DNA of 64,000 bases from Candidatus Palauibacter sp. (GCF_965216145.1 NZ_OZ244149.1:417011-481010), one strand, 5' to 3'. Positions 1-14,300 are shown, numbered from the stretch's first letter. Translations and numbers: made by a program. The notes: generated by a model not told the origin, from the sequence alone.

Positions 1-2799
1 CCGGTGGGCGTGGCGCTGCACGGCGACGTGGGCGCGTTCACGAAGGACGAACGGGAGCGTCTGCTACGCGCCTTCGGCGAACGCGCCGACGAGATCAGGG
101 TCTGGGACTGGCCCGAGGCGGCGCTCACCTCTCTGGTCGACCGGTACACCCCGGGGATCCTCGCAGCCTATCTCCGGGAAGATGACCGAAGCGAGGGAAC
201 GCAAGAGGTCGCCTATCTGCTGCTCACCGCCTTGTCACGCACTTCCGTCCCCCTGCCCCTGGATACGGGACTGGTCGCGACGGTCCGGGATGGCTCTTGG
301 CGATCTCATGTAAGGAGCATGTCCCTGCGCGCGCTCCTTCGCCGCCGAGAACACGACCCCTCATGCCTCCCAGACCTGATGAGCCTGCTTGACGATCTGC
401 GGGGCGGGCGGGTGAAGGACCGCAATCACGAACTACTGGGACTGCTGCTGTGGTATCTCTATCCAGACCAGATCGGTCCGGGGAGCGTGTGGGACTACCT
501 GCTCCCCGACGACGTGCCGCTCGGTGGCTCCTACGGCTTCTTCTGGCGGAGTCAGCTCGTCGACAAAACGGGAGATGACGCGCCCGCGCTGGTCGACGCA
601 CTCTACGAGCGGGGGACGGGATGGCTCGAGACGGGTCCCTACGACGCGATGTCCCGGGTCGTGCACAAGCTGGTTCAGCGGGCGTTGCGCGTCAGCGGGG
701 ATGTTGCCGACACCGAGCGAGTCCTCAACTGGCTGGAGTTGATCGGTTTCGAGGCGTTCGTGTCGGGACCAAGCTCCGAGGCACTCCGGGCGATTCGCGA
801 ATGGCTCACGGCTCGTCCCGACATGCAGAAGCAACTCGCGCTTAACGGTCTCGGTCGGCATGGCGGACGCGAGAACTACCGCCCTTGGGCGTGGAGCGTC
901 CGATGGGCGGAGTTCGGTGCCGCCGCACCGGGCCAAGGATCTCCGGCGCTGCGGACGGACGCGGAGCAGCTTGCGATGCCGCCGCCCGAGCCCATCGTCA
1001 CGACCGTGCGGGAGGAGGCGGCGGAATACGTAACCGCAGCGGAACGCGAGAAGGCCGACGTCGTTTCAGCGGTGCGCGACCAACGGGGACAGTTGCCAGA
1101 CGGGAAGTGCGCGCCAGCATTGCTTGACCGGCTTGCGTCGGCGTACCACGACACCTTCCACGACCAACCCGGCGCGGATCCCGAGTCCCGCCTGCTGGGG
1201 CTTCTCGATGGAGATCGGGGAATGGTTCGGGCGGCCTTTTCCGGGTTCCGTCGCGTACTCGAGCGGGACGACCTGCCGAGTCTGCGAGAGATCATCAGGC
1301 TCGACGAGGACAATCGGAGGTCGTTCTTCGCGCTTCCTTTGCTCGCGGGGCTCGACCTGCTCGGATCCACGGCGCTCCAAGGTCGGGACGCGGCAACTGT
1401 CCTCCGGGCCATCGGCATCTACTACGTCACGCCCGTCAACCCGAACCAGCTGGCGCACCCGGCGTGGTACGACGCAATCCGTCAGACACACCCGGACCTG
1501 GTCGCCGAAGTCCTGGTCAAGGTCACCCGCTCTCGGATCCGCAGGAAGGAGGACTGCCATTATCTCTGGCGTCTGGCGCGCGACCCGGCCTACCGGAAAG
1601 TGACTCGGATCGCGGCTCCTAAGCTGTGGCGCGGATTCCCCACCAAGTGTACTGAACCGCAGATTCTGGCGCTGCGAGAACTCCTGCGGGCCGGAGTTCG
1701 CTGGGAGGCGGACGGGATCGAGGAGGCCCTGCGACGCCGGATCGATACCGATCTGGACGTGGCGCAGCGCGCATTGTGGCTCTCCGCCGGACTGTTGGTA
1801 TCGCCCGTGGAGTACGCACCGCTCGTCGTCTCTTTCGTGCAGGAAGGAGAGGAAGCGCGCGGACGCCACATCGTGGACTTTCTGGCCCCTGCGGACGACG
1901 GGTATCGGCTGCCGATGCCTTCGGGCACACGCGAGCTGCGATCTCTGATCACCCTCGTCGGACGCCGGTACGAACCGTGGGTCAGCGAGGCCAAGAGATC
2001 GAGCCCCTGGACGGACGGGAGCCGAATGAAGGCGGAGCAGCTCATTCACCGCTGGACACGCAGACTCGCCGCACGCACGGACGATGCGTCCGTCGCCGCC
2101 CTCGAAGCGTTGGTGTCGGACGCCTCGCTCAAACCGTGGCAGACGATGCTACGACGGGCCGGGGACGCGCAGATCGTAGCGCGCCGCAGCGCGACATTCG
2201 CCACCCCCAACCTTGCCGCCGTCCAGAGAAACTTGTCCGGCGGACCGCCCGCGAGCGCCGCCGATCTTACTGCCTTCGTCGCAGTCGCGTTCGAGGAAAT
2301 CGGGGAGCACCTCCGGCATGGAGACACCGACAGGTGGCGGCAATTCTGGGACGAACCGATCAGTTCCGCCGACAAGCAGCCCAAGCACGAGAACTTCTGT
2401 CGAGACCGGCTTCTCGACGCGCTACGACCGAAGCTCCCGCCCGGGGTGGACGCCCGTCGCGAGGGAAACTACGCCGAGGACAGGCGGGCGGACATCCGTG
2501 TTTCGTACGGCGGTTTCGCCATCCCCGTCGAGATCAAGAAGAACCGCTATCGGAAACTCTGGAGCGCGGCGAGCGATCAACTGGTGGCGAAATACGCACG
2601 CGATCCTGAGTCGGACGGATACGGCATCTACCTCGTACTTTGGTTGGAGCGGGAACGTACGCCGGTTCCACCGTCCGGCCCGCGACCCAAGACTCCCGAC
2701 GAGCTTCGGGATCGTCTAGAGACAGGTCTCGCCGACCGTGACCGCGTCAAGGTAAGCGTGGTTGTACTGGACGTCAGCCGCCGTGAAACGGCCAAGTAA
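1..2799 (+). CDS. Large hypothetical protein, 5' partial (>930 aa), with C-terminal PD-(D/E)xK nuclease-like motif
   Basis: ORF track 4..2799; frame is open to the window edge, so the gene probably starts upstream. No P-loop in the visible part. C-terminal segment RREGNYAEDRRADIRVSYGGFAIPVEIKK has the E ... D-hydrophobic ... E-x-K spacing of a restriction-endonuclease-like fold. Confidence 0.6.
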   Translation, partial: PVGVALHGDVGAFTKDERERLLRAFGERADEIRVWDWPEAALTSLVDRYTPGILAAYLREDDRSEGTQEVAYLLLTALSRTSVPLPLDTGLVATVRDGSWRSHVRSMSLRALLRRREHDPSCLPDLMSLLDDLRGGRVKDRNHELLGLLLWYLYPDQIGPGSVWDYLLPDDVPLGGSYGFFWRSQLVDKTGDDAPALVDALYERGTGWLETGPYDAMSRVVHKLVQRALRVSGDVADTERVLNWLELIGFEAFVSGPSSEALRAIREWLTARPDMQKQLALNGLGRHGGRENYRPWAWSVRWAEFGAAAPGQGSPALRTDAEQLAMPPPEPIVTTVREEAAEYVTAAEREKADVVSAVRDQRGQLPDGKCAPALLDRLASAYHDTFHDQPGADPESRLLGLLDGDRGMVRAAFSGFRRVLERDDLPSLREIIRLDEDNRRSFFALPLLAGLDLLGSTALQGRDAATVLRAIGIYYVTPVNPNQLAHPAWYDAIRQTHPDLVAEVLVKVTRSRIRRKEDCHYLWRLARDPAYRKVTRIAAPKLWRGFPTKCTEPQILALRELLRAGVRWEADGIEEALRRRIDTDLDVAQRALWLSAGLLVSPVEYAPLVVSFVQEGEEARGRHIVDFLAPADDGYRLPMPSGTRELRSLITLVGRRYEPWVSEAKRSSPWTDGSRMKAEQLIHRWTRRLAARTDDASVAALEALVSDASLKPWQTMLRRAGDAQIVARRSATFATPNLAAVQRNLSGGPPASAADLTAFVAVAFEEIGEHLRHGDTDRWRQFWDEPISSADKQPKHENFCRDRLLDALRPKLPPGVDARREGNYAEDRRADIRVSYGGFAIPVEIKKNRYRKLWSAASDQLVAKYARDPESDGYGIYLVLWLERERTPVPPSGPRPKTPDELRDRLETGLADRDRVKVSVVVLDVSRRETAK

Positions 2800-2878
2800 G
2801 GAAGGACCGAGAGATGAGGACTCCCGGAGACGAGCGTGAACGAGGCGCGGGACGTGAAGACGAGCATGGAGTCCCGCG

Positions 2879-3889
2879 TTGAGCGGCACCGATCGCCAGT
2901 GTCCGCTGTGTCTTCGGCAATGCGGAGGCGGCGGAGGTGAGTGGGGATATTGGTTTGATTGCGAAACGTGCGGGAAGTTCAGCGTCGAGCAGTACCTCAG
3001 GGCCAGCGACGCGACCAATGGTCTGACGGTTACACAGCGGTCCTGGCTGTCGCACTTCGCGCGGACGAAGTGGGACCTCCACGAGTCGTTGCCGAAGAGG
3101 GTTCCCGGCACCACTCCGGAGCCGACCCCTGCCGTGATCGACCGCAAGCTCGTGGAACAAGCCCGAAACGGAGACTTGGCCGTAACCCGTGCGCAGCAGG
3201 CGGCGAACGCGATCAGGCACATTGGAGATCGAGTCCTCGAGGGAGGAGGCGCCATCACTCTCCGATATGGCTCACCCAAGTTCGCAGCGGTCATCGGTGC
3301 TCCGAACTCCGGTAGTGCGCGGGAACTCATGGGCGAACTCGCCGCGGCGGACAGGGTCAAATGGAATGAACCGCCATACTTCCAAGGCGGCGAGGAACCG
3401 TATGCCAGTGCGGACCTTACGCTCACAGGCTGGGAGCAGTACGAGGAGATGAAGCACGGTTCGCTCGATGGAGGGTACGGATTCTTCGCGTGGCAATTCG
3501 GCGGCACAAGAACCGAGCCCATTTTCAAGGATGTCCTCAAGCCGGTCTTCAGGAAGCGGGGCTATCCGCTACGGGATATGAAGGATCTCTCCCAGCCCGG
3601 CCTGATCGACAACATCATGCAGGACCGGATCCGGGGCGCCTCGTTCGTCATCGTCGACCTGACCGACGGCAACCGCGGGTGCTACTGGGAGGGGGGCTTT
3701 GCACAGGCTCTCGAGAAGCCGGTCGTGTACATCTGCCATCAGGAAGCGTTCCACGACCCGGCCACGAAGCCGCACTTCGACACGAACCATTACACGGTCA
3801 TCTTCTGGGGTGCCGACAAGCCGAACGAGGAATTCGTCGAGGAGCTTATCGCGACGCTGCGGCGGCACCCCGGCGGACTGGATCTTTGA
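2879..3889 (+). CDS. Zinc-ribbon protein with C-terminal nucleoside 2-deoxyribosyltransferase-like (SLOG superfamily) domain
   Basis: N-terminal four-Cys ribbon (CPLC ... CETC). C-terminal FVIVDLTDGNRGCYWEGGFAQALEKPVVYICHQ matches the D..G...E.G.A.a..KPv signature of nucleoside deoxyribosyltransferase-like domains. Alternative (TTG) start per ORF track; 80 nt downstream of the preceding gene on the same strand. Confidence 0.6.
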   Translation: MSGTDRQCPLCLRQCGGGGGEWGYWFDCETCGKFSVEQYLRASDATNGLTVTQRSWLSHFARTKWDLHESLPKRVPGTTPEPTPAVIDRKLVEQARNGDLAVTRAQQAANAIRHIGDRVLEGGGAITLRYGSPKFAAVIGAPNSGSARELMGELAAADRVKWNEPPYFQGGEEPYASADLTLTGWEQYEEMKHGSLDGGYGFFAWQFGGTRTEPIFKDVLKPVFRKRGYPLRDMKDLSQPGLIDNIMQDRIRGASFVIVDLTDGNRGCYWEGGFAQALEKPVVYICHQEAFHDPATKPHFDTNHYTVIFWGADKPNEEFVEELIATLRRHPGGLDL

Positions 3890-4194
3890 CCGGGTTCATC
3901 GCCATGGACTGGTTGAGCGTCGGTCAGCGGACGGATGTGCTCGACTGCGGCGGCAACCGGTACGCGCAATCGACCGGCCAAGTGCGGTTCAACGTGGGGG
4001 TGAAGGCGGACTCGGAAACGGTCACGCGGTAACGGTGAACGCGGCGCTGCGCCGGGAGGAGCTGCTGCGCCCGTTGAGCGCGCCGTGGCTGACGTGTTAC
4101 TCTACCGGTGTGCCGCAAGCGGAGATCGCGGAAGCAGCGGAAAGATGGGTCAATCTGCCGGGTGAACCGATGAACAGAGAAGGGAACGTCACAG

Positions 4195-4419
4195 ATGCGT
4201 AATCCACCAACATCTAGTTACGACATTGTTAGTGGTACATTCGATCTTTCTATCGACGGAAGCACCGTAACCGTAAAGGGCGATATCAGCAGTACCTACA
4301 ACACGGCCCTTATCCCCATAAATGTATCGTTCGATGTGGACAACAACCCTATGGACTATTCACTACGGGAGTTGGGCAAAATGGCCATCGTGCAGCACTT
4401 TCAAAAGAATGAGAGTTGA
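4195..4419 (+). CDS. Small hypothetical protein (74 aa) in an AT-rich patch
   Basis: ORF in a locally AT-rich segment that contrasts with the GC-rich surroundings; no recognisable motif. Could be non-coding. Confidence 0.3.
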   Translation: MRNPPTSSYDIVSGTFDLSIDGSTVTVKGDISSTYNTALIPINVSFDVDNNPMDYSLRELGKMAIVQHFQKNES

Positions 4420-4517
4420 GGTCAATTGAGGTCCAAGCTCCACTAGTTGAAGACAACCACTTACATAGGGTGTGTAAATTGGCGACCCGTCCAAAAAGCC
4501 GGGAACACCTCAGGATT

Positions 4518-5354
4518 CTATCCGAGGCTGTCGCGCAGGATTCTCTCCAATTCGTCAACTACGGCCCGCATGTGCAGCTTGTCTTCCGGGCGCTCTTCAC
4601 TATTGCGTATCGTATCGACGACATTTGACCATGTCTTATGGATTTCGGGCAATCTGAGCATCTTGGGATCCGCATTTAGTGCTACGTGTAGCAGCTCTTC
4701 CGCGCGAGTAAGGTCGAAAGCGTCATACGCATTAATTTTTTTGATACAGGCAAGATGCTCATTGGGGAAGTCCAACATCTGATAAAGATTATCAATATCT
4801 CTTGACAGATAAGCAGTATCCTGAAGAGCGCTTACAACTTGCTCTGCGATGTCCGACATGTTTGACTGGTGTCGGATCGCGATGGCCTCCTCAACGGCGT
4901 TGGCCAAATTGTCCCGAATCCACTCGTACCGTTCTTCGCTACTTCGCCCGGGAGGATCGTAACACTTCACCACACGGGAAAGATCTTCATGTGCGCCGAC
5001 AGCGATCCTGAACGGATTCGGACCCCTTGCGGCCACATGTCCATCCCGGTTTCGCAGGCCGTGGATGCGAATCCCGACGACGCCCATCCCATCCTTCCAG
5101 GACTTCTCAATCTCGTATTCGACCCATGGCCGTCCGGTGGTGTGGGTTCCCACCAAGACCACCGTGCAGGAGCGTGCTCGCATCTGGTCGACGATCCACG
5201 CCCTGATGGCCGGAGCACCCTGACGCGTCAATTCCTCCCAACTGGTATCCGTCGCCGGTCTGTTTCCCTCAACCACGCCGATGTTCCGAACCGTCGCCGC
5301 TCGCCAGCGGTCGGTTTCGTAGTTAAAGCTGTAGAACACCCTTCGCTTTAGCAT
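4518..5354 (-). CDS. TIR-like domain protein (DUF1863 / ThsB-like) with AT-rich C-terminal helical extension
   Basis: Start set at the internal ATG (MLKRRVFYSFNYETDRW...), residue 94 of ORF 4518..5633. N-terminal VFYSFNYETD ... CTVVLVGTHTTGRPWVEYEIEKSW ... GVVGIRIHGL fits the flavodoxin-like TIR/DUF1863 pattern. Confidence 0.65.
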   Translation of the reverse strand: MLKRRVFYSFNYETDRWRAATVRNIGVVEGNRPATDTSWEELTRQGAPAIRAWIVDQMRARSCTVVLVGTHTTGRPWVEYEIEKSWKDGMGVVGIRIHGLRNRDGHVAARGPNPFRIAVGAHEDLSRVVKCYDPPGRSSEERYEWIRDNLANAVEEAIAIRHQSNMSDIAEQVVSALQDTAYLSRDIDNLYQMLDFPNEHLACIKKINAYDAFDLTRAEELLHVALNADPKMLRLPEIHKTWSNVVDTIRNSEERPEDKLHMRAVVDELERILRDSLG

Positions 5355-5454
5355 GCCGTTCCTCCACGGCTCCCATCCACTATCACCGGCGACCGCGGGG
5401 GCGACATCGGTCGGAGGAGCGAGAACGAGATAAGATGCAACTCGGACGCCAGTT

Positions 5455-8190
5455 CTATCGCGCGGGCCGGACGCCTCCCTTGCGGCGCAGACCGTAGCCG
5501 ATCCGGAAGACATCCGGGACATCGACGCGGTCATCCCGGAGGCGACGGAAGATACCCAGGGACTCCAAAGCCTCGCGGAGTTCATCGTGGTCATAATCCA
5601 TATGCGGCAGCGGGAGCCGCCACCCGTCTCCACTACCCGCCTGGGCCAGCTGCTTCAAGACGCGTCGCTCACGCCACAGATGAACGACTTCCTCGAAATC
5701 ACACGGAACAACCCGTCCGGAGAGCGGTTGCATCAGCACCTGCACCCATGGATAATCCTCCTGTAGCTCCCGAACCCGCGTCGTGGACGCCTCCCGCACA
5801 CCGTGCTTGATGCTCTGGTAGTGAAGGGCGTAGCCATGATCCGGATGGCGTTCATGAGAATCTTCCGCCGCTGAGCGCAACGCCGTGAGAAACGAGCGCG
5901 GACTGACCTTGCCCCCGGCGTCGGCGAGGTGGTTTGGGATCCATGTGTACGGGTATCCGCGTCTCCGATCAGTGCCCATCCACGGGCCCGCGAATTCGTG
6001 GAACTTGTCGCGCTGGGCCCCCTCGTCGCGGTCGAGCGGATACGGCACTTCGAAGCGCGGTGCCGTATCGTCATCAGTCGTGGACCAGTGTCCGTCCTGC
6101 AAGCGCGGACGGACGAGGTCACCTCGTGGACCGTTGGCCAGGGAATGCCAAAGCAGGCCGTAGAGATCCCGGCGCGGCCAGCTGAGATCGACAGCCGACG
6201 ACAACACTTTCGAAGCGTCCGGAAAGTCCGTGATCCGCCGCTCGTCCACCTGATCAGTTCTCAGGAAGATCTTCGCGCGCAAGCGGCGATACGGACGCAT
6301 GTCGAGGGCGTGCTCCAGCAATCCTCGAATCAGCTCGGACGCAGTCTGCCAGTCGGAGGCGGCGCGATCCAGAGCGTCAAATAGCACGACGGAATACACA
6401 CCCCTTGAGTCCAGTTCGACATCGATAGTCCGCAGGAGGTCGAGGACGACACTCGGGTCATCGAGGACGTACCTCGCGCGTTCAAGCCACGTATCGAACT
6501 GTCGTATCGGATGGTCGGCACCCGCCACCGCGCACGCATGCACGGTTCGCCAGATGATCCGGGGCTCCACGTTGTTGGCGATTAGTCGACAAAGATCGTC
6601 CCTCACCGGATAATCGCCCGGCACATTGGAGACACCGAATCCCGACTCGACGACTGAATCTTCGTTCAAAGGAAAGCCCCGCACCTCTCGCCCCAGCGAG
6701 CGACGAACCTCGGGACTCTGCAGGGCGCGCCACCAGAATGTCTTGCCTGAGCCGCGCATTCCAGTGACGAGCATCGTGTCGGGGTGCATGGCCTTTCGAT
6801 GCGAAGGCGGGATGTACACGGCCGACGACGGGACGGGCTCGCCGTAGCTCGCCGGATCGGGCAGCTCGCTGAACGCGAGGCGCACGGTCTCGGCCCGGGT
6901 CGGGTCGCCGACTGGCTCGGGGCTTCGGTAGAGCAGGTCGAACCGTCGGAGGAACTCCCTGTACGCTTGGGCCACCGTCGTTCGCTCCAGCTTCCGGAGA
7001 GAAATTCCGGCCGCGAACCCTCGTGTCCAATGGATCACCAGCGGATCATGCTGCCCCTCCTCGGACGACAGGTCAGCCGACACCCCCTCATCCGTTTCCC
7101 CGAGATCCACGATCTCGTCCTGCAGGCGATCCCGAAGGAGGATTCGTGCGTTTTCCCGGAACCGTTCGACGTACCGCTCGGTATCCGTCTCGGGCGTCAA
7201 GGCGGAGACGATCGACAGGCGTTCGCGTATCCGGGATGCCATGTTTGTGCGCGCCCAATGATCGAACAGAATCCCGTAGTCCGTCCAATGGCTGTCGGAG
7301 TCGACGGCGAACAGCATCACCTCCGCGTCCAGATCCGTCACCGTTGCCGCCGCAATATCGTGGAGGCCGCTCCGGCTCTCGATGAGCACGACGGTCGGGC
7401 TGAACTCCGTTTCCAGGTTCACCACCAACCGCTTCAAGCGACTCGTCCAAGGATCGATCGCCGTATCCATGTACGTGCGCCCGAGCTTTGCGAGGTATTC
7501 CCCCGGCTTCCTGCCGTGCGCCGGCGCCACCAGCACACGTCCCGGCAAGTCATGAGCCCAAGAGGGCTTCCCCGTCATCCGGCTCACGACATGATCTCCC
7601 TGTCCGACCAATTCTTCGACGAACCAGTCCGTGACGCCGAACTCCGGCTCGGCCGGGGGTTCCAACATGGCCGACGCCAGCCCGGGCGACTCTAGGTCCA
7701 AATCGATGACAAGCACATCCTCCGCCTGCCGGGCGAGGTGCCACGCCAACACCGCCGCCGTCGTGCTGCGCCCCACCCCACCCTTCACCGAGTATAGGAC
7801 GTAGCGGGCCGGGTGGTGTTCGCTCGACGGGTCCGGGACTGTCCACCATTCTTGGCCGACGACGAGCCGGTCGGCCCAATGAACGCCGGGCCTGATCAAC
7901 TGCGCCGTGTCGCCCAGCGTCTCCAGCAACGCGGGATCTACGAAGAGCACTGTCTTCTGCGGCAGGTGTCCGTGGGCCGCGAGCGCATCCGCCAAGCGAC
8001 TCGCCAAGCGGCTCAGCACTTCGCCGAGTTCGCGATCATCCTGGGCTGCTTCCGATACCGATATGCCGACCTTGCCGAAGAGGTTGCGCACGAGGTATAG
8101 CGGCGGTGCGTCGGCTGGGATCTCCATCCCTTCCAGCACCTCCGATACGAGCCGCCGCACTTGGTCGAACGGAACGAAGGTGTCGCTCAT
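5455..8190 (-). CDS. Dual-NTPase protein: ParA/MinD-like domain with deviant Walker A (KGGVGRST) plus a second P-loop NTPase (GMRGSGKT)
   Basis: Start at internal ATG (MSDTFVPF...), which overlaps the stop of the upstream 140-aa gene (ATGA). YSVKGGVGRSTTAAV followed by DVLVIDLDLESPG is ParA/Soj-like; LVTGMRGSGKTFWWRAL with later VVLFDALD gives a second Walker A/B pair. Confidence 0.7.
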   Translation of the reverse strand: MSDTFVPFDQVRRLVSEVLEGMEIPADAPPLYLVRNLFGKVGISVSEAAQDDRELGEVLSRLASRLADALAAHGHLPQKTVLFVDPALLETLGDTAQLIRPGVHWADRLVVGQEWWTVPDPSSEHHPARYVLYSVKGGVGRSTTAAVLAWHLARQAEDVLVIDLDLESPGLASAMLEPPAEPEFGVTDWFVEELVGQGDHVVSRMTGKPSWAHDLPGRVLVAPAHGRKPGEYLAKLGRTYMDTAIDPWTSRLKRLVVNLETEFSPTVVLIESRSGLHDIAAATVTDLDAEVMLFAVDSDSHWTDYGILFDHWARTNMASRIRERLSIVSALTPETDTERYVERFRENARILLRDRLQDEIVDLGETDEGVSADLSSEEGQHDPLVIHWTRGFAAGISLRKLERTTVAQAYREFLRRFDLLYRSPEPVGDPTRAETVRLAFSELPDPASYGEPVPSSAVYIPPSHRKAMHPDTMLVTGMRGSGKTFWWRALQSPEVRRSLGREVRGFPLNEDSVVESGFGVSNVPGDYPVRDDLCRLIANNVEPRIIWRTVHACAVAGADHPIRQFDTWLERARYVLDDPSVVLDLLRTIDVELDSRGVYSVVLFDALDRAASDWQTASELIRGLLEHALDMRPYRRLRAKIFLRTDQVDERRITDFPDASKVLSSAVDLSWPRRDLYGLLWHSLANGPRGDLVRPRLQDGHWSTTDDDTAPRFEVPYPLDRDEGAQRDKFHEFAGPWMGTDRRRGYPYTWIPNHLADAGGKVSPRSFLTALRSAAEDSHERHPDHGYALHYQSIKHGVREASTTRVRELQEDYPWVQVLMQPLSGRVVPCDFEEVVHLWRERRVLKQLAQAGSGDGWRLPLPHMDYDHDELREALESLGIFRRLRDDRVDVPDVFRIGYGLRRKGGVRPAR

Positions 8191-8609
8191 GGCGTCCCTC
8201 CCTGCGCAGCCCATTGAACCATCAGCCGAACCTCTGACGCCGCCCGACGATGCGGCTCGACGTAGGCCTCATCGAAGTTCCCCCGGCTGGCGTAGCGGTT
8301 ATGGTGCGACCAATCGGAGAACGGTTCCCCGCCCGGAAGCTGCGCAAGCAGCGCGCCCGCGCCTCGCTGCGCCGCGAACTGGTCGAACACGTTCCACAGT
8401 TCCTCGATATGTACGCGATGCGCCCGCTCTTCCGGCGCGCCGTCGGGGCGAACGAGCATACCAAGATTCTGCATGAGCGACTTCAGGCCGCACTCGGCGC
8501 TGAACCCGTACAACTGATCCGCGTTGGCCCAGCGACGCGCGGCCGACAGGTACTCGGCATCTTCCCAGTGTCGCTCGTGCGCGTCCTCGAAGTCCGCCGC
8601 GTAGATCAT
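8187..8609 (-). CDS. Hypothetical protein (140 aa), translationally coupled to the dual-NTPase gene
   Basis: Clean ORF starting MIYAADFEDAHERH; stop overlaps the downstream start. N-terminus resembles the methyltransferase C-terminal tail and the 65-aa orphan ORF. Contains RAHRVH, a weak R-x4-H HEPN-like hint only. Confidence 0.55.
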   Translation of the reverse strand: MIYAADFEDAHERHWEDAEYLSAARRWANADQLYGFSAECGLKSLMQNLGMLVRPDGAPEERAHRVHIEELWNVFDQFAAQRGAGALLAQLPGGEPFSDWSHHNRYASRGNFDEAYVEPHRRAASEVRLMVQWAAQGGTP

Positions 8610-8803
8610 GCTAGCTCATGGCCCCGCGCAGCGCGCGTCGTGTTCAGATCCATCAGACGAGCGAGCACCTCATTGCGCACGTCGCCCGGCGGTCGGGTCA
8701 ATAGGGTGTAAGTGCCATGAGGCGGCGACCTTCCGTGGCGCTCATGAGCGTCCGTGAAGTCAGCCGGATGGATCACGAGTCCCCGGCAAGAATAGATCGG
8801 CAA
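8606..8803 (-). pseudogene. Orphan 65-codon ORF: probable remnant of a gene 3' end, homologous to the methyltransferase C-terminus
   Basis: Translation ...HPADFTDAHERHGRSPPHGTYTLLTRPPGDVRNEVLARLMDLN aligns with the methyltransferase C-terminus ...HETDEDERRRARAPHRYRWPNEVRDEVLARLMALN. Alternative start, no upstream context; lies in the 418-nt gap after the truncated ATPase. Confidence 0.3.
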
Positions 8804-9027
8804 TCCGCATGTTCACCCTCCATGGTCGGCTCGTCGCCGTCTGCGGTGCGGTTTCGGCGGTCATGCATGATACTGTGGCGCTCCAAGTTAGACGCCGGAG
8901 CGGTTTCTTGCTCCACCGCAGCCTCGCACGGCTACTGCGGGACATCGCAAGAGGTCGTGTCGATCGACCCTCTTCCGAGAGCTCCGCGGCGGAACTCCGT
9001 CCGGTGAGCGTCCGTTTCCTAAGGGGG

Positions 9028-9822
9028 TCACGGCTGTTCTTGAGGGGGTGTAGCGCTTTCGGCAGCACAGGCGATGGCGTCAAGCTTCTCGCTCACTTCC
9101 GGATCGACATCCGCAGGCGGCATGTGGCCGACGAGCCGGTAGAAGTTGCCCTTCGGCATGAGGTTTGGCAGGCCCAGCTTCGAGAAGTACGCGGTGAGCA
9201 GCGGCTTCAGGAACTCCGTGCTCACCTTCAGGTCGGCGCCCCACGGCGACGGCTTCCCGAGACGCCGCACGTTCACGGCGCCCTCGTCGAGCCGGGTCTC
9301 GGCCGCAGCCAGCCCCGACATCGGCGGCAGGAAGGCCATCCTCACGCTCCCCGCCTCGTCGGGGACGGGCATGCGGTCGGGAACGCGATCCTCCGTCAAC
9401 CGCAGCGGACGGCAGTACACCGACTCGTCGTTCGCGTAATCGAACTCGAGCCCGCACGTCCAGGCACGCCCGCGGGTCACCCCCTCGACGATGATGTCGA
9501 TGCGGATGTTCCTCGTTTGCTGTTTACCGCCTACGTACCGCACATCTCGCACCCGAAGATCCCGCCACGCGAGCTTAACGCTCGGAATTGGAATGGACAC
9601 GAGATCGCGACGGTTGATGGTCACGCCCGGGCGTTTCTCGGGCGTTCTCTTGCCGGCCCGCTTGGCGTTCCACTGGGTCAGCCCCGTGTGCCACAGGGCG
9701 AGCGCCTGCATGGCGGAGGTCTTGCCCGAATTGTTGGGTCCGATGAAGACGACCGGGCTCCCGAGCTCGACTTCGACGTCTTCGAAGCGCTTGAATCTTC
9801 GAATGGTCAGCTTTGTCAGCAT
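9028..9822 (-). CDS. AAA ATPase N-terminal fragment (AAA_15/AAA_21-like, as in GajA/PtuA/OLD-family ATPases), probably truncated
   Basis: Start at internal ATG (MLTKLTIRRFKRFEDVEVELGSPVVFIGPNNSGKTSAMQAL). Walker A present, but no Walker B, signature or H-loop before the stop at 264 aa. Confidence 0.5.
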   Translation of the reverse strand: MLTKLTIRRFKRFEDVEVELGSPVVFIGPNNSGKTSAMQALALWHTGLTQWNAKRAGKRTPEKRPGVTINRRDLVSIPIPSVKLAWRDLRVRDVRYVGGKQQTRNIRIDIIVEGVTRGRAWTCGLEFDYANDESVYCRPLRLTEDRVPDRMPVPDEAGSVRMAFLPPMSGLAAAETRLDEGAVNVRRLGKPSPWGADLKVSTEFLKPLLTAYFSKLGLPNLMPKGNFYRLVGHMPPADVDPEVSEKLDAIACAAESATPPQEQP

Positions 9823-9901
9823 ACGACGCCACCACTTCCCGTCCGGTCGCTTGCATGCGGCTTCAGCCAGCAGAGCAGCGGAACCGCGCATGGCGCACTG
9901 C

Positions 9902-11272
9902 TCATCTGACCCCCTGGAACTCCGCATCCACTCGTTCCAAGTCACGTCTCAGGTCATTCGCCGCTTGGCGCGCAAGGCGGAGCCGTTCCTTCTGATTCCG
10001 GCACCGTTCGCCCAGTTCCGAATAGCATATGGACAGATTGAGAAGTGACGAGAACAGGCCTTGAGCTGCCGTGTCGACCGCCTTGAGATCTTCCGGCGAA
10101 AAAGGCAGATCGCTTCCGCGCTCACCAAGTTCTTGGCCTTGCCCCGCCAGCTCGCGTAGACGCAGATCGCACTCGTTCGGCGTGCTCTTACCCGCTTCGA
10201 GATCGGAGAGGACGCGGATCACATTTTGCACGAGAGGACGGCTGGCTGAAACAAGTGTCTTGATCTCCCTTAGCATGGGCCCCTTCTTGCCCGTATGCTG
10301 TCGATGGAATTCTCTCCAGTGCCCGTACTGGTGATTCCAAAGAATCGAGACACCATCCCAAACTTCGTCACCGTCCCACGGCATCGGACGACAGGATGGA
10401 TCGAGGCCCGGATCAACCCACTGAGTTCGCGCAATCCAGTTCGCGTGACGAACGTCGTCGTGTCCGCCCGCCACATAGAGGTATACGACGTCTGCTCTAT
10501 GCCCGGACCAAAGCGCCTCAAGTTGAGGACTTCGGTGGTATTCCTCTTCGCGAATCTCCGGAAGAGCCCGACTGATCACGTCCCTAACGCCATCGCGCCC
10601 CGCGTGGCGATCAACTACCAGCACCGCTGAATAACGCTTGGCACCCGCATGACTCACGTCCTCGAGCCGCACGATCTCGTACGGCAGGTCGCCCTTCACC
10701 GGCACTTCGAGGATTGCGTCGGGCGCACGACGCTGGCCACAGGCACACGTCCCGTCGTTACGGAACAGCTTCCCGTCCCGAGGGCAGATCTTCTCGTATG
10801 CGATGAGGAGCCGGGCGCAATCAACCGTATCGACGATGAGGTGTGGGACAGTCGCGTCGCTGGCCGTCTGCGCAAAGTCGCGTCGCGCATCATCCTGAAT
10901 GTCCCCTACGGCCATCAGCACTGCCAAACCGAGGTCCGGTATCGTTCGGAGCTTAGCGAACTGATGAGAAACGATTTTGCTCGTAACCTTCGGGAAGGAA
11001 GGACCCTTCAAGACGAAGCCGGCGGTAACCGGACGACCACGTAGGACGATCCGAGTCGTAACGATGTCGGCGATCTCCGTTGGACCGTGTGGCGTTTCGT
11101 TCGGGTCGAAGAGGATCTCACGAACTGCTGATTCCAGCGCACGTTCGTTCAACCGCCGAACCTCCGCGAGCACGTCGTCAGACACGCCTGTGGCTGGAAT
11201 CCGAACCACCTTGGCGAACTGATCGATTTCACCGAGCGCCACCAAACGGGCCCGGTTCACGCCGATCCCCAT
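9902..11272 (-). CDS. Hypothetical protein (456 aa) with Cys cluster and C-terminal coiled coil; candidate partner of the methyltransferase
   Basis: Start at internal ATG (MGIGVNRARL...), 29 nt after the methyltransferase stop. Contains CPRDGKLFRNDGTCACGQ and a charged C-terminal helical region. No confident family assignment. Confidence 0.5.
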   Translation of the reverse strand: MGIGVNRARLVALGEIDQFAKVVRIPATGVSDDVLAEVRRLNERALESAVREILFDPNETPHGPTEIADIVTTRIVLRGRPVTAGFVLKGPSFPKVTSKIVSHQFAKLRTIPDLGLAVLMAVGDIQDDARRDFAQTASDATVPHLIVDTVDCARLLIAYEKICPRDGKLFRNDGTCACGQRRAPDAILEVPVKGDLPYEIVRLEDVSHAGAKRYSAVLVVDRHAGRDGVRDVISRALPEIREEEYHRSPQLEALWSGHRADVVYLYVAGGHDDVRHANWIARTQWVDPGLDPSCRPMPWDGDEVWDGVSILWNHQYGHWREFHRQHTGKKGPMLREIKTLVSASRPLVQNVIRVLSDLEAGKSTPNECDLRLRELAGQGQELGERGSDLPFSPEDLKAVDTAAQGLFSSLLNLSICYSELGERCRNQKERLRLARQAANDLRRDLERVDAEFQGVR

Positions 11273-11303
11273 CCGGTCGTGAAAGACCTGTTCTGCCTTG
11301 TTC

Positions 11304-14300
11304 TCAAGTCGTTCCTCCCGCCGACAGGTGTTGCGTACCCTGCGCACGTTCGGAATTTAGAGCCATCAGGCGGGCCAACACCTCGTCCCGCACCTCGTTG
11401 GGCCAGCGATATCGATGGGGTGCCCTTGCACGGCGACGCTCATCTTCGTCGGTCTCATGGTTGAGCAGGAACTCGCATCGGGTAGGGATGTCGGACCAGC
11501 CGTACGCATCGAGGACGACCCGATCGATGTCCGCGTGAAGCTCGCGGAGCCTCGATACCGCCGGATCCGTTTCGTTCCGGTCGTGGAACCGGTTGTACGT
11601 CTTGGTCAAGCCCTCCTGGTTGTGAAGCATGAGGTCGCCGCGAAACTCGTAGTATGCCTTGCCGACTCGCTCCCGGACGGGATCTGCATGCCAGTCTGGA
11701 GGAAACGGGAAAGTCTCAAAGCAGTCGGACGGCGTGTACCGCAGCCGTTCCTCAAGCGTCGACCCGAAAAAGCGTGCCCAAACCTCGTGAACGCGGGATT
11801 GAAGGACGCAAAACGCTGCGTAAGTGTCCATGGAAAAAATCACAAGAGTGTTGGCGAAAACCATTCGGGCTGGAAGAAACGCTAATGCCAGATGGGGCGT
11901 GGCACCGCAGTTGACGGCCAACACTCGATTCAAATCCGCGATGGTCGCGTAGAGTCCTGCAGCTTTTTCGGCGTGTTGCCACCAACGCTCTCGACGCACC
12001 TTACGGTTCTGTCGCTCACGGTCGGGCTTCACCTTTTCTTCTAGAATCTGCACTAACTCTGGCCATCGCTCGCGGCACTCGTCCTGCCGACGCTTGCCAA
12101 AGTTGATCACGTAGCGGTGATGCGCTTGCGCGAGGCTCGTGTTGACCTCCTGCCCGCCAATGTAGGGGAAGATCACTTGCGCATTGTGCGGATCCTCAGC
12201 GATAAGCCTCCGCATTTCGGCCAAGGGCGTGGCCACTCCCTTGGTGTCGGTGTCGTCGAACGTGAAGCCCATGCCGAGGACGATGCTCCCCTGAAAGCTC
12301 TGCTCCGCGTTTTCCTTGAGCCGCGGCGGGTCGTCGTTCCCACCTGCGTGGAACAGAAATGCCGTGATCCGTTCGACGGCGGCGTCATCGAGCGATTTCT
12401 GGTGCCCGAACCTCCCTTTCACGATGTGCAGGACGCTGACCACTACAGCCGCAACGCCCGGCCACTTGAAGCGGGTTTGCGCGCGGTAGATCTCTCCGCC
12501 GCGCGTGCAGATCCAGCGGAGGCCCGTGGACCGGGTGTCGCCTTGCGAAATCGTGTTCGTCGCGATGAGGCCCAGCGTGCCTTGTTTGCGCAGCAGGTTG
12601 AACGACCGCCGGAAGAAGTGGGCGACCAAATCCGCGTTGCCGTGGCTCCGCGCGTGCAGTTCCTTGAGCCACAGCGGGTAGCCGGGGACGTTCGAGGCCG
12701 CGACGGTGTTCTTGCCCGCGAACGGCGGGTTCCCGACGAAGGCGTCAAAGCCCGGGTTCCGGCGCTCGAACACCTCCGGGAACTCGATCTCCCAGTGGAA
12801 CGGGGCGAACGGCGTGGTCTCCTTCCGTTTCGCGGCGAGGCGCCCCCCGTGGGAGAGAACGGCGAGGCGTTCCGTATCGCTGTCGCCCAGAAGAGACGCG
12901 AAGTGCTGCCGCCGGCGGGCCTCCCGCTGCCTCGCTCTTGTCTCGAGGAAGAACGCCTCCAGCGCCAGATCGCCGAAGAACCGGACGTCCGTCAGCGCCG
13001 CGTTCGCGTCGTCCAGCTTGTCTCGAAGTTCCCGCTGGTCGATGTCGGGCGGCGCGTCCCTGATCTCCCCGCGTAGCGCGACCACGCGGTCCACTGCGTC
13101 CGAGACCACGGTGTTCAGCTCCAGCTGGGGCGGCAGGGATCCCCTCTTCCAGGTGAAGGCGGCGATCTGCGGCTTCGCCAGGCCGACCAGGGAGTCGCCG
13201 TCGCGGAGGGCGTGGTCCACGAAGGTGAGCGGTTCGTCCTTGGCCAGGGTGGCCAGCCACAACGACATCTTGGCGAGGTCCACCGCCATGGGGTTGCGGT
13301 CCACGCCGTAGAGGCAGCGATGCGCCACGAGACGGCGGGCGAACAGATCTTCGTCCTCCCCGGACGGGAGAGCGGGGAGCGTTCCGTGCATCCGCCATGC
13401 GGTGACGAGATGGTCGCCCAGTTGGCGGCAGGCCTCGACGAGGAAGGCGCCCGAACCCATGGCGGGATCGCAGACCTTGAGATCGAGGATCTGCTCGGCG
13501 CGGGGCGGGCCGCCGTCTCCGAGGCGTTCGAGGATCGGTTCCAGCGCTTGCCGCACGATCGGTTCGGTGAGTTCGCGCGGCGTGTAGTGCGATCCCGAGC
13601 GCCGCCGCGCCTCGCTGGGCTGGAGGATCATCGCGCCGCGCGGCACCAGATCCGGTGTGGCCGCCGCGTCGATGACGTTGTGCAGGGAGGCGTGCGCGTC
13701 GGCGAGCGTTTGCGCCGCGCGGAGGGGCTTGCTCACGGTGGGCGTCAGCTTTCGGCCCGTCCGGTCAAGAATCCATTTCGGGCGATCGACGGGCGCAACA
13801 TCCAAGAGCAGTTCCAGATCCACCGTTGTCGAGGCTCCGAGCTTCTTCTGCGCCTTGACGGCGGCGGACCGGCCCGTCGCGGTCTCCAGCCGGAACCCCA
13901 TCATCGTCTCGTACACGGAGCCGATCTGCTCCACGTCGAGCGCGCGGTACGAGATCCGTTCGCCGTCGAGGACCAGCAGCTTGTCGAGCACCCGGTAGAT
14001 CGTTCCGTCCGGCACCAACGGAACGTCGATCCCCTCGTGCACCTGCGGTGCGCCGCTCCCGCGCCATCCCTCGAGGAACGGGAACCGACTCGGGCTGAAC
14101 AGTTCTCCGCGCCGCGGCGGGAGTCTCATTCCGTCGCACTCCGCCCCGTCGTGGACCATGCGAAACAGCACGACGAGCTGTGCCCACGCCCCGTAGCGCT
14201 GGTCCATCGTGTCCGGGTTGAGCGCCGCGTCCTCCCTCAGCCTCTCGTACAGTCCGCCCAGCGAATAGGAGCCGAGGAAGGTCGCGTCGTCCGACAACAT

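What the first reader, a model, noticed from the sequence alone, without database searches (positions are those of the whole stretch)
1..3889. Giant protein with C-terminal PD-(D/E)xK-like motif followed by a Zn-ribbon / nucleoside-deoxyribosyltransferase-like protein
A protein of more than 930 aa (5' end off-window) ends in a restriction-endonuclease-like E...D...E-I-K motif and is followed after 80 nt by a protein combining a four-Cys zinc ribbon with a SLOG/nucleoside 2-deoxyribosyltransferase-like domain (D..G...E.G.A...KPV with a conserved Glu). SLOG/NDT-like domains are known nucleotide-processing or NADase effector modules in conflict systems; this pairing is not a named system to my knowledge.
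Basis: partly seen in the sequence, partly recalled or inferred. Interest (0 to 1): 0.75.

Follow-up and report, generated by a model that had tools for sequence, protein, structure and literature searches.

The report
Known-type phage sensor plus unrelated neighbour
The big protein is a diverged member of a known family of bacterial phage sensors (Erebus/Avs10) that carries its own DNA-cutting domain. The small protein after it belongs to a large, unstudied family that turns up in many different defence islands and is not a regular partner of the sensor.

Summary
Window 1-2799 (+) is the last 932 codons of a 1305-aa protein, and 2879-3889 (+) encodes a 336-aa protein after a 79-nt spacer.

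The large protein is a diverged relative of the NACHT antiphage protein EruA (Erebus), now grouped as Avs10, a sensor of phage major capsid protein. Its C-terminal domain models as a PD-(D/E)xK nuclease with invariant E, D, ExK and Q residues. Its conserved partner is an upstream AAA_14/DUF4143 ATPase (PADLOC PDC-S01), which lies off-window.

The second protein has a zinc ribbon, a winged-helix-like middle and an NDT/TIR-like domain with an invariant Glu. Its family is large: 1,834 50%-identity clusters at E<=1e-30.

The pairing is not a general system:
- 0 of 40 Erebus-like loci carry this family downstream.
- 1 of 80 species-representative loci of the family has the NACHT gene.
- One relative kept an intact second gene after losing the NACHT gene.
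- The closest NACHT relative has a SIR2 gene in that slot.

Both genes sit among cassettes embedded in a class 1 DISARM locus of a Candidatus Palauibacter genome. The most likely reading is two independent defence modules. The second is an uncharacterised candidate.

The parts
1..2799 (+). 3' 2.8 kb (932 codons plus stop) of a 1305-aa Erebus(EruA)/Avs10-like NACHT STAND gene. The first 373 codons, which hold the P-loop NTPase, lie off-window.
   Evidence: NCBIfam NF058535 EruA: E=1.8e-124 for the fragment and 767 bits, E=4e-230, for full-length P0053. P0053 was located on the same 4.32-Mb contig. The fragment is 53% identical to the L001 orthologue, which matches the EruA profile 1-1318/1318.
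1..2150 (+). Helical sensor region of the NACHT protein. It is highly divergent between otherwise similar loci, giving a mosaic pattern.
   Evidence: DNA identity to L001 is 52-67% here against 75-95% downstream. dS is 1.54 here, 0.53 for the nuclease domain and 0.31 for the next gene. L171 is 89% identical from 1254 to 4506 but only 65% in 1-603.
2332..2796 (+). C-terminal PD-(D/E)xK (restriction-endonuclease-fold) domain, the presumed effector. Motif residues are E797 (nt 2389), D831 (2491), E844-x-K846 (2530-2538) and Q860 (2578).
2800..2878 (.). 79-nt spacer between the two genes. It is conserved with the flanking genes within the lineage.
   Evidence: Sequence. It is 71-93% identical to L001. 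L086 retains it together with a ~190-nt remnant of the NACHT 3' end. No sigma-70-like promoter or intrinsic terminator was detected, which is uninformative for this phylum.
2879..3889 (+). Gene for a 336-aa protein ('fam2') built of a zinc ribbon, a winged-helix-like domain and an NDT/TIR-like domain. TTG start.
   Evidence: 40 homologues. 209 loci among GTDB species representatives. 1,834 50%-identity clusters at E<=1e-30. AF2 pLDDT 85.8. dN/dS 0.23-0.28.
2879..2989 (+). Four-Cys zinc ribbon (C8, C11, C28, C31). It is absent from the short ~225-245-aa forms of the family.
   Evidence: The CPxC...CxxCG consensus is seen. The model shows four short strands at residues 4-36. There is a weak match to the LysW zinc ribbon. 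Short forms are listed.
3131..3463 (+). Middle helical/winged-helix-like domain (residues ~85-195). This may be the sensor or an oligomerisation module.
   Evidence: Secondary structure is. Foldseek matches plant O-methyltransferases, which combine a wHTH with a Rossmann domain, at E~1e-2. This is an inference, not a firm assignment.
3464..3868 (+). NDT/TIR-like flavodoxin-fold domain with invariant D244, N245, D260, N265, G267, E271 (nt 3689-3691), H299 and D301. This is the presumed N-glycosidase or NADase catalytic domain.
   Evidence: PF05014: E=0.004, 17.7 bits, for residues 243-289, and 29 of 30 family members match. The PADLOC TIR effector PDLC00733 matches at E=3e-4 and down to 3.7e-10 for relatives. 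Foldseek finds SARM1 TIR at E=6e-4 and NDT, DNPH1 and MilB at E 4e-3 to 1e-2.

Best explanation
The interval holds two separate defence modules that sit next to each other as cassettes inside a class 1 DISARM locus of a Candidatus Palauibacter (Gemmatimonadota) genome.

Module 1 is the 3' part of an Erebus(EruA)/Avs10-type NACHT STAND protein.
- By homology, its helical sensor binds a phage protein. For characterised Avs10 members that protein is the major capsid protein.
- Binding drives NTP-dependent oligomerisation.
- Oligomerisation switches on the protein's own C-terminal PD-(D/E)xK nuclease, which cuts DNA and aborts infection.
- Its conserved operon partner is the upstream AAA_14/DUF4143 ATPase (PADLOC candidate PDC-S01), which is off-window.

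Module 2 is a self-contained protein with a zinc ribbon, a winged-helix-like middle and an NDT/TIR-like domain. It belongs to a large uncharacterised family that inserts into many kinds of defence loci.
- The most likely mechanism is that the N-terminal modules sense a phage cue or control assembly.
- The C-terminal domain, with its invariant Glu, would then hydrolyse an N-glycosidic bond of NAD+ or a (deoxy)nucleotide and deplete it.

What is shown: the homology, the folds, the conserved residues and the gene-neighbourhood statistics. What is inferred: the trigger, the substrates and the antiphage activity.
For: Module 1.
- The EruA profile match is end to end. The L001 orthologue scores 857 bits over 1-1318/1318. 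P0053 scores 767 bits. The window fragment gives E=1.8e-124.
- The Walker A and B residues G41, G44, G46, K47, D88, D91 and E92 are invariant.
- The literature groups Erebus, Hypnos and bNACHT64 as Avs10, a capsid-protein sensor whose toxicity needs its effector domain (PMC13581612).
- The PDC-S01 ATPase (E=1e-125) overlaps the NACHT start in 45 of 69 loci, and also in L001, L002, L083, L084, L169 and L171.

Independence of module 2.
- 0 of 40 Erebus-like loci with at least 1 kb downstream carry fam2.
- Only L003 among 80 GTDB fam2 loci has the NACHT gene.
- Plasmid-borne EruA-like genes stand alone.
- L086 lost the ATPase and the NACHT gene, leaving a ~190-nt 3' remnant. It kept an intact fam2 with dN/dS 0.25.
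- L169/L170 carry the NACHT closest to the window's (67% identity). A 588-aa SIR2_2 protein occupies the fam2 slot there.
- L003 has an extra, divergent fam2 copy inserted in between.

Defence role of fam2.
- About a third of its same-strand neighbours are RM or defence genes. These include HsdS, HsdR and HsdM, MmeI/DrmMI-like methyltransferases and HEC-01-like ATPases.
- L085 lies beside DarT and a Macro-domain gene.
- The window locus lies between DrmMI/DrmD and DrmA/B/C.
- No conserved metabolic neighbour was found.
Against: Within the Palauibacter-like lineage the adjacency recurs.
- It was read directly in four loci: the window, L001, L003 and L171. Matching contig lengths suggest two more (P0009/P0044, P0010/P0050), but those contexts were not read.
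- The genes are on the same strand, 61-80 nt apart where measured (window, L001, L171). In L003 a second, divergent fam2 copy lies between them.
- The nuclease domain, the spacer and fam2 form one high-identity block, so co-transcription and cooperation are not excluded.
- The alternative occupant of the slot is a SIR2 protein, another NAD+-type effector domain. This could hint at a swappable partner.

The NACHT protein scores below NCBIfam's equivalog cut-off (767-857 bits against 1000). It is only ~26-35% identical to the plasmid-borne proteobacterial EruA-like proteins found here, so the trigger may differ.

No experiment supports antiphage activity for fam2. Its substrate cannot be read from sequence.
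Confidence: 0.68

Rival explanations
1. The ATPase, the NACHT-nuclease protein and fam2 form one three-gene system in this lineage. In this reading fam2, or the SIR2 protein that replaces it in a sister locus, is a second, trans-acting NAD+/nucleotide-degrading effector or helper that the activated NACHT oligomer recruits.
For: - The adjacency is same-strand with a 61-80-nt spacer where measured, read directly in four related loci. Matching contig lengths suggest two more.
- The nuclease domain, spacer and fam2 are co-inherited as one block of 75-95% identity, ending exactly at the fam2 stop codon.
- A SIR2_2 protein sits in the same slot beside the closest NACHT relative. This would be an effector-type swap.
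- No terminator was detected in the spacer.
Against: - 0 of 40 Erebus-like loci elsewhere have fam2, and 79 of 80 fam2 loci lack the NACHT gene.
- L086 keeps an intact fam2 under purifying selection after the NACHT gene was deleted.
- The NACHT protein already has its own intact nuclease effector.
- No fusion of the fam2 domain to a STAND protein was found among 109 relatives.
- The locus is a known hot spot for unrelated embedded cassettes.
Confidence: 0.15
2. fam2 is not an effector but a regulator or sensor. The winged-helix domain would bind DNA. The NDT/SLOG-like domain would bind a nucleotide ligand. Together they would control expression of whichever defence genes lie nearby, in the manner of BrxR/CapW-type regulators.
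For: - The middle domain is winged-helix-like.
- The family associates with many different defence systems rather than one partner.
- Related Rossmann-like SLOG domains act as ligand sensors. This point rests on my own knowledge of Thoeris ThsA.
Against: - The full NDT/DNPH1-type catalytic motif, with invariant Glu, Asp, Asn and HxD residues, is conserved across the family. That is more than ligand binding usually requires.
- The gene lies downstream of or inside operons, not upstream and divergent.
- No HTH family reached E<=1 in Pfam.
- Many loci have only housekeeping neighbours with nothing obvious to regulate.
Confidence: 0.1
3. fam2 is an ordinary nucleoside-salvage 2'-deoxyribosyltransferase that merely happens to lie next to defence genes.
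For: - There are weak PF05014 matches.
- JGI annotates some relatives as nucleoside 2-deoxyribosyltransferase.
- Some loci have housekeeping neighbours such as RNR small chain, ThiC and ETF.
Against: - No metabolic neighbour is conserved.
- The zinc ribbon and winged-helix additions are foreign to salvage NDTs.
- The gene recurs inside type I RM, DISARM/type IIG and HEC-01 contexts and next to IS elements or integrases.
- Distribution is patchy: 209 loci in about 100,000 species representatives.
- Scores fall below the Pfam gathering threshold.
Confidence: 0.03

Closest known systems
Erebus (EruA) / Hypnos (HyoA) / bNACHT64, grouped as Avs10 (van den Berg et al. 2024; Kibby et al. 2023; Lee et al. 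Nature 2026, PMC13581612)
   Same: - The match to NCBIfam NF058535 (EruA) is end to end. There is a weaker match to NF058534 (HyoA).
- The order of parts is the same: N-terminal P-loop NACHT, a long helical sensor and the same C-terminal domain. The profile is matched to its last position.
- It lies in a defence island.
   Different: - It scores 767-857 bits, below the 1000-bit equivalog cut-off.
- It is ~26-35% identical to the plasmid-borne proteobacterial EruA-like proteins found here.
- The window protein lacks profile positions ~643-730.
- It is preceded by a PDC-S01 ATPase, which the Pantoea and Vibrio plasmid copies lack.
- The trigger is untested here.
- Equating EruA with Erebus and HyoA with Hypnos is my inference from the names. 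The original Erebus paper was not available.
PADLOC candidate PDC-S01 (AAA_14/DUF4143 ATPase)
   Same: The gene just upstream of the NACHT gene, off-window, matches PDLC04791 at E=1e-125.
   Different: PADLOC lists it as a single-gene candidate. Here it overlaps the start codon of an Erebus-like NACHT gene in 45 of 69 loci, which suggests a two-gene unit.
NDT-like and TIR effectors of defence systems (Retron-Eco1/Ec86 NDT-like effector; TIR NADases such as SARM1, ThsB and SPARTA TIR-APAZ)
   Same: - The fold is flavodoxin-like, with a Glu in the G-x3-E-x-G motif.
- Foldseek matches SARM1 TIR, NDT, DNPH1 and SPARTA TIR.
- There is a weak match to a PADLOC TIR effector model.
   Different: - No retron RT, Argonaute or Thoeris partner is conserved next to it.
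- No Pfam TIR model matches.
- The zinc-ribbon plus winged-helix N-terminal architecture is not that of these effectors.
Swarozyc (DUF4062 TIR-like NADase with an HTH/winged AUX domain; bioRxiv 10.64898/2026.05.01.722283)
   Same: Both are single polypeptides that combine a TIR/NDT-like catalytic domain having a conserved Glu with a winged-helix-type accessory domain. Both have a patchy, island-associated distribution.
   Different: - The domain order is reversed: the catalytic domain is C-terminal here.
- No DUF4062 hit appears in Pfam at E<=1.
- A zinc ribbon is present.
- Neither a portal trigger nor NADase activity has been shown.
Effectors embedded in restriction-type operons (PrrC in type Ic RM loci, from my own knowledge; Hma/DISARM-embedded candidates such as PADLOC HEC-01)
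   Same: - fam2 sits between hsdM and hsdS/hsdR in L005, L006, L009 and L054.
- It sits between a DrmMI/type IIG-like methyltransferase and a HEC-01B-like ATPase in L026 and L028. In L011, L014 and L036 a HEC-01B-like ATPase gene likewise follows it directly.
- The window cassette lies between DrmMI/DrmD and DrmA/B/C, next to a HEC-01A-like ATPase.
   Different: There is no sequence relation to PrrC. fam2 itself matches no HEC or PDC model.

Membership tests
Erebus (EruA) / Avs10 NACHT STAND | Full-length homology to the EruA profile (NF058535) | tested here: met
   P0053 gives E=4.3e-230. The L001 orthologue is matched over 1-1318/1318. The window fragment gives E=1.8e-124 against profile 730-1318.
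Erebus (EruA) / Avs10 NACHT STAND | Score above NCBIfam's curated equivalog cut-off (1000 bits) | tested here: not met
   P0053 scores 767 bits and L001 857 bits. Plasmid copies score 772-777 bits and P0159 scores 969 bits. The protein is a diverged relative, not an equivalog.
Erebus (EruA) / Avs10 NACHT STAND | Intact P-loop NTPase (Walker A GxxGxGK[ST], Walker B hhhhD..DE) | tested here: met
   G41, G44, G46, K47, D88, D91 and E92 of P0053 are invariant in 43 sequences. This region is off-window.
Erebus (EruA) / Avs10 NACHT STAND | Activation by phage major capsid protein, and antiphage activity | not testable with these tools
   Known only for tested Avs10 homologues (PMC13581612).
PD-(D/E)xK nuclease superfamily | Restriction-endonuclease alpha/beta core fold | tested here: met
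PD-(D/E)xK nuclease superfamily | Conserved catalytic D...(D/E)xK, with an upstream E and a downstream Q | tested here: met
   E797, E844, K846 and Q860 are invariant and D831 is at least 90% conserved. All are invariant in A3.
Nucleoside 2-deoxyribosyltransferase / DNPH1 (PF05014) | Pfam gathering score | tested here: not met
   The window protein scores 17.7 bits against a cut-off of 28.8. 29 of 30 relatives match at E<=0.01, with best E 3.4e-6. This is a superfamily-level relation only.
Nucleoside 2-deoxyribosyltransferase / DNPH1 (PF05014) | Catalytic Glu in the G-x3-E-x-G...KP motif | tested here: met
   G267, E271, G273 and A275 are invariant. K280, P281 and V282 are at least 90% conserved.
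Nucleoside 2-deoxyribosyltransferase / DNPH1 (PF05014) | Housekeeping salvage context | tested here: not met
   No metabolic neighbour is conserved, and RM or defence genes recur.
TIR-domain NADases | TIR fold | tested here: met
   Foldseek finds SARM1 TIR at E 6e-4 to 3e-3 with target TM 0.61-0.66. It also finds MyD88, RPP1 and SPARTA TIR.
TIR-domain NADases | Match to a Pfam TIR model (PF01582, PF13676, PF08937) | tested here: not met
   None at E<=1. Only the PADLOC TIR effector PDLC00733 matches, at E=3e-4.
SLOG / LOG | Sequence or fold match to SLOG or LOG domains | tested here: not met
   No SLOG or LOG family appears in Pfam at E<=1. None appears among the top 50 Foldseek PDB matches.
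Swarozyc (DUF4062) | DUF4062 domain | tested here: not met
   No DUF4062 hit in Pfam at E<=1. The resemblance is in architecture only.
   0 of 40 NACHT loci and 1 of 80 fam2 loci show it. L086 and L169 break the pair.

The most novel reading that the evidence does not exclude
In the Palauibacter lineage the Erebus/Avs10-like NACHT-nuclease sensor may have acquired a swappable downstream partner. That partner is either the zinc-ribbon/winged-helix/NDT-TIR-like protein or, in a sister locus, a SIR2 protein. It would act as a second, trans-activated NAD+/nucleotide-degrading effector. This would be a bacterial sensor-plus-helper arrangement within a three-gene PDC-S01/NACHT/effector system.
Probability: 0.13. 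Interest if true: 0.65.

Novelty: new variant of a known kind. Interest (0 to 1): 0.4.

Why it matters
The first protein adds a Gemmatimonadota branch to a known family of capsid-sensing bacterial NLR-like receptors. It also points to two features of that family I did not find in the main text of the Avs10 paper:
- a tightly coupled upstream DUF4143 ATPase (PDC-S01) in about two thirds of loci;
- strong mosaicism of the sensor region between otherwise near-identical loci, as expected for an arms-race receptor.

The second protein is the more useful lead. It represents a large family, with at least 1,800 50%-identity clusters spread across many phyla. The family combines a TIR/NDT-like catalytic domain with zinc-ribbon and winged-helix modules. 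It has no model of its own in Pfam, NCBIfam or PADLOC. It repeatedly lodges inside restriction-type and DISARM loci.

If it is a stand-alone defence protein, it would extend the set of NAD+/nucleotide-depleting immune effectors. It is small enough to test directly.

Tried and rejected
Steps that led nowhere.
- Exact-sequence look-ups of ORF2 and of the NCBI-truncated P0007 found no contig. The contig was reached through P0053 instead.
- Literature searches for 'EruA', 'HyoA', 'Eru' and 'Hyo' found nothing relevant. Guessing that the names abbreviate Erebus and Hypnos led to the Avs10 paper.
- The original Erebus paper, the published Kibby paper and the Nature supplements are not held. I therefore could not confirm the gene content of canonical Erebus or the annotated effector of Avs10.
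- Pfam, PHROGs and PADLOC gave nothing for the NACHT fragment.
- A profile search of PDB sequences with the fam2 alignment gave only noise.
- The promoter and terminator scan found nothing on either strand.

Ideas considered and rejected.
- fam2 as a ThsA-like partner of the nearby ThsB-like TIR. That TIR gene belongs to the convergent PDC-M28 operon, and no TIR neighbour recurs across fam2 loci.
- The SIR2 protein of L169 as a relative of fam2. hmmsearch with all filters off found no hit.
- fam2 as a housekeeping NDT (see rivals).

Full report
**What is there.** The window comes from a 4.32-Mb contig of Candidatus Palauibacter sp. (Gemmatimonadota). Window base 1 corresponds to position 11120 of locus L002. 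An ORF open from base 1 to the stop at 2797-2799 gives 932 codons. After a 79-nt spacer, a 336-codon ORF runs from a TTG at 2879 to 3889. Both are real genes. The first is the C-terminal 932 aa of the 1305-aa protein P0053. The second has 40 homologues, the best at 87% identity over its full length. Public gene calls shorten the second gene to 186 or 251 aa. The TTG start restores a zinc ribbon that is conserved in homologues.

**The large protein.**
- Pfam, PHROGs and PADLOC (2023) find nothing in the fragment.
- NCBIfam matches it to NF058535, 'NACHT domain-containing antiphage protein EruA'. The fragment gives E=1.8e-124 and aligns to the last profile position.
- Full-length P0053 scores 767 bits. 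Its orthologue in a related genome (L001, 53% identical) scores 857 bits over profile 1-1318/1318.
- Both scores are below the curated 1000-bit equivalog cut-off, as are the copies on Pantoea and Vibrio plasmids. It is a diverged relative.
- I inferred that EruA and HyoA abbreviate Erebus and Hypnos. The literature groups Erebus, Hypnos and bNACHT64 as Avs10, a STAND family that senses the phage major capsid protein and whose toxicity requires its effector domain (PMC13581612).
- The off-window N-terminus carries invariant Walker A and B residues.

**The C-terminal motif.**
- I predicted the last 233 residues with a 44-sequence alignment. The model has pLDDT 82.3 and pTM 0.76.
- Foldseek against the PDB was weak, with best E=0.063. 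Even so, it listed Can2, Hjc, PspGI, NucS and PaqCI.
- E797, D831, E844, K846 and Q860 are invariant or nearly so.
This domain is the natural effector, because no domain precedes the NTPase.

**The second protein ('fam2').**
- The AF2 model has pLDDT 85.8. It shows a four-stranded zinc ribbon (residues 4-36), a helical/winged-helix-like middle and a C-terminal alpha/beta domain.
- Foldseek places the C-terminal domain with SARM1 TIR (E=6e-4) and other TIRs. It also matches nucleoside 2'-deoxyribosyltransferases, DNPH1 and MilB.
- PF05014 matches weakly, at 17.7 bits against a cut-off of 28.8, but does so in 29 of 30 relatives.
- A PADLOC TIR-effector model also matches weakly.
- The residues G267-x3-E271-x-G273 and K280-P-V, together with D244, N245, D260, N265, H299 and D301, are conserved.
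- No SLOG, LOG or DUF4062 match appeared.
- The family is large. It has 209 loci among about 100,000 species representatives found with two peptide patterns. It has 1,834 50%-identity clusters at E<=1e-30 and 6,149 at E<=1e-10.
- It occurs in a long form (~315-340 aa) and a short form that lacks the zinc ribbon (~225-245 aa). No fusion to a STAND protein was found.

**Is the pair a system?**

From the fam2 side:
- Of 80 species-representative loci, only L003 (a Gemmatimonadota MAG) has an Erebus-like neighbour.
- Elsewhere fam2 lies between hsdM and hsdS/hsdR, beside HEC-01-like AAA_15/21 ATPases, beside MmeI/DrmMI-like methyltransferases, or beside unrelated housekeeping genes.

From the NACHT side:
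- Among 82 Erebus-like loci, 0 of the 40 with at least 1 kb downstream carry fam2.
- In contrast, 45 of 69 have an AAA_14/DUF4143 ATPase overlapping the NACHT start.
- That ATPase is the PADLOC candidate PDC-S01 (E=1e-125).

Within the Palauibacter-like lineage the adjacency does recur:
- It was read directly in the window, L001, L003 and L171. Matching contig lengths suggest two further contigs.
- The nuclease domain, the spacer and fam2 form one block of 75-95% DNA identity that ends exactly at the fam2 stop codon.

But the pair is also broken within that lineage:
- L086 has lost the ATPase and the NACHT gene, keeping only a ~190-nt 3' remnant and the spacer. Its fam2 ORF is intact, with dN/dS 0.25, the same as in the other pairs.
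- L169/L170 carry the NACHT closest to the window's (67% identity). They have a 588-aa SIR2_2 protein in the fam2 slot, and homology ends ~100 nt before the NACHT stop.
- L003 has a second, divergent fam2 copy inserted in between.

**The setting.** The whole region is a class 1 DISARM locus. DrmD (window 15230-18589) and DrmMI (11307-15221) lie on the minus strand. DrmA, DrmB and DrmC lie to the left of the window. About 14 kb of cassettes are embedded between DrmMI and DrmA:
- an unknown 456-aa gene with an AAA fragment;
- PDC-M28A, a fused PDC-M28B/C and a ThsB-like TIR;
- the plus-strand PDC-S01/NACHT/fam2 set;
- a HEC-01A-like ATPase.

Related genomes carry different cassette sets in the same slot.

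**Conclusion.** The best reading, with confidence about 0.68, is two independent modules. The first is an Erebus/Avs10-like NACHT-nuclease sensor with its PDC-S01 ATPase partner. The second is a self-contained zinc-ribbon/winged-helix/NDT-TIR-like protein that is a plausible but untested stand-alone defence effector. Cooperation restricted to this lineage cannot be excluded (about 0.15). A regulatory role for fam2 is possible (about 0.1). A housekeeping role is unlikely.

**Other observations.**
- Synonymous divergence between the window and L001 is 1.54 in the sensor, 0.53 in the nuclease domain and 0.31 in fam2.
- L171 is 99.7% identical in fam2 but only ~65% identical in DNA in the sensor.
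- Together these indicate recombination, or sensor swapping, inside the NACHT gene.

**Limits.**
- The trigger, the substrates and the antiphage activity are all inferred.
- Equating EruA with Erebus rests on the names.
- The winged-helix assignment is tentative.
- The original Erebus paper and the Avs10 supplements were not available.

Noticed in passing
window 4518-18589 (minus strand) plus L002 1228-8482: A class 1 DISARM system is split by ~14 kb of embedded cassettes. DrmD lies at 15230-18589 and DrmMI at 11307-15221. DrmA, DrmB and DrmC and a HEC-01A-like ATPase lie to the left of the window (L002). Related genomes (L086, L169, L171) carry different cassettes in the same slot.
   Followed up: partly
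window 4518-8609 (minus strand): This looks like an operon of PDC-M28A (8187-8609), a fused PDC-M28B/C protein with a KGGVGR-type ATPase (5455-8214) and a ThsB-like TIR protein (4518-5354 as called in ENA; the longest ORF runs to 5633). It may be a PDC-M28 variant with a TIR effector. No ThsA is nearby.
   Followed up: no
L002 8718-10004 (just left of the window); L083, L084, L087-L166: The AAA_14/DUF4143 ATPase (PADLOC single-gene candidate PDC-S01) overlaps the start codon of Erebus-like NACHT genes in 45 of 69 loci. This suggests a conserved two-gene unit. The main text of the Avs10 paper does not mention it.
   Followed up: partly
window 1-2150 versus 2158-3889: Divergence is mosaic. The NACHT sensor region is far more diverged (dS 1.54; 52-67% DNA identity to L001; ~65% to L171) than the nuclease domain and fam2 (dS 0.53 and 0.31; L171 fam2 is 99.7% identical). 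This indicates recombination or sensor swapping within the gene.
   Followed up: partly
L169 9363-11129 (and L170): A 588-aa SIR2_2 protein occupies the position of fam2, downstream of the NACHT gene most similar to the window's. It has no detectable similarity to fam2.
   Followed up: partly
L003 8992-9921: A second, divergent fam2 paralogue (309 aa) is inserted between the NACHT gene and the fam2 orthologue.
   Followed up: no
window 2879-3889: Public gene calls truncate this gene to 186 aa (ENA) and 251 aa (NCBI). Only the TTG start at 2879 gives the 336-aa product with the conserved zinc ribbon.
   Followed up: yes
P0053 residues ~666-683 (window about 880-930): The window's NACHT protein lacks EruA profile positions ~643-730. 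This is a ~60-aa deletion in the sensor relative to L001. The protein is 1305 aa against the usual ~1350-1365.
   Followed up: no
window 3890-4517: This is a lower-GC stretch (0.57 for 4001-6000) with small ORFs. A 74-aa ORF at 4195-4419 is almost identical in L171, where IS elements are inserted right after it at window position ~4505. Its function is unknown.
   Followed up: partly
L005, L006, L009, L054; L011, L014, L026, L028, L036: fam2 members are embedded inside type I RM operons (hsdM-fam2-hsdS...hsdR, with a YgjP-like gene). Short-form fam2 genes are followed directly by HEC-01B-like ATPase genes. In L026 and L028 a DrmMI/type IIG-like methyltransferase gene also lies directly upstream.
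   Followed up: partly
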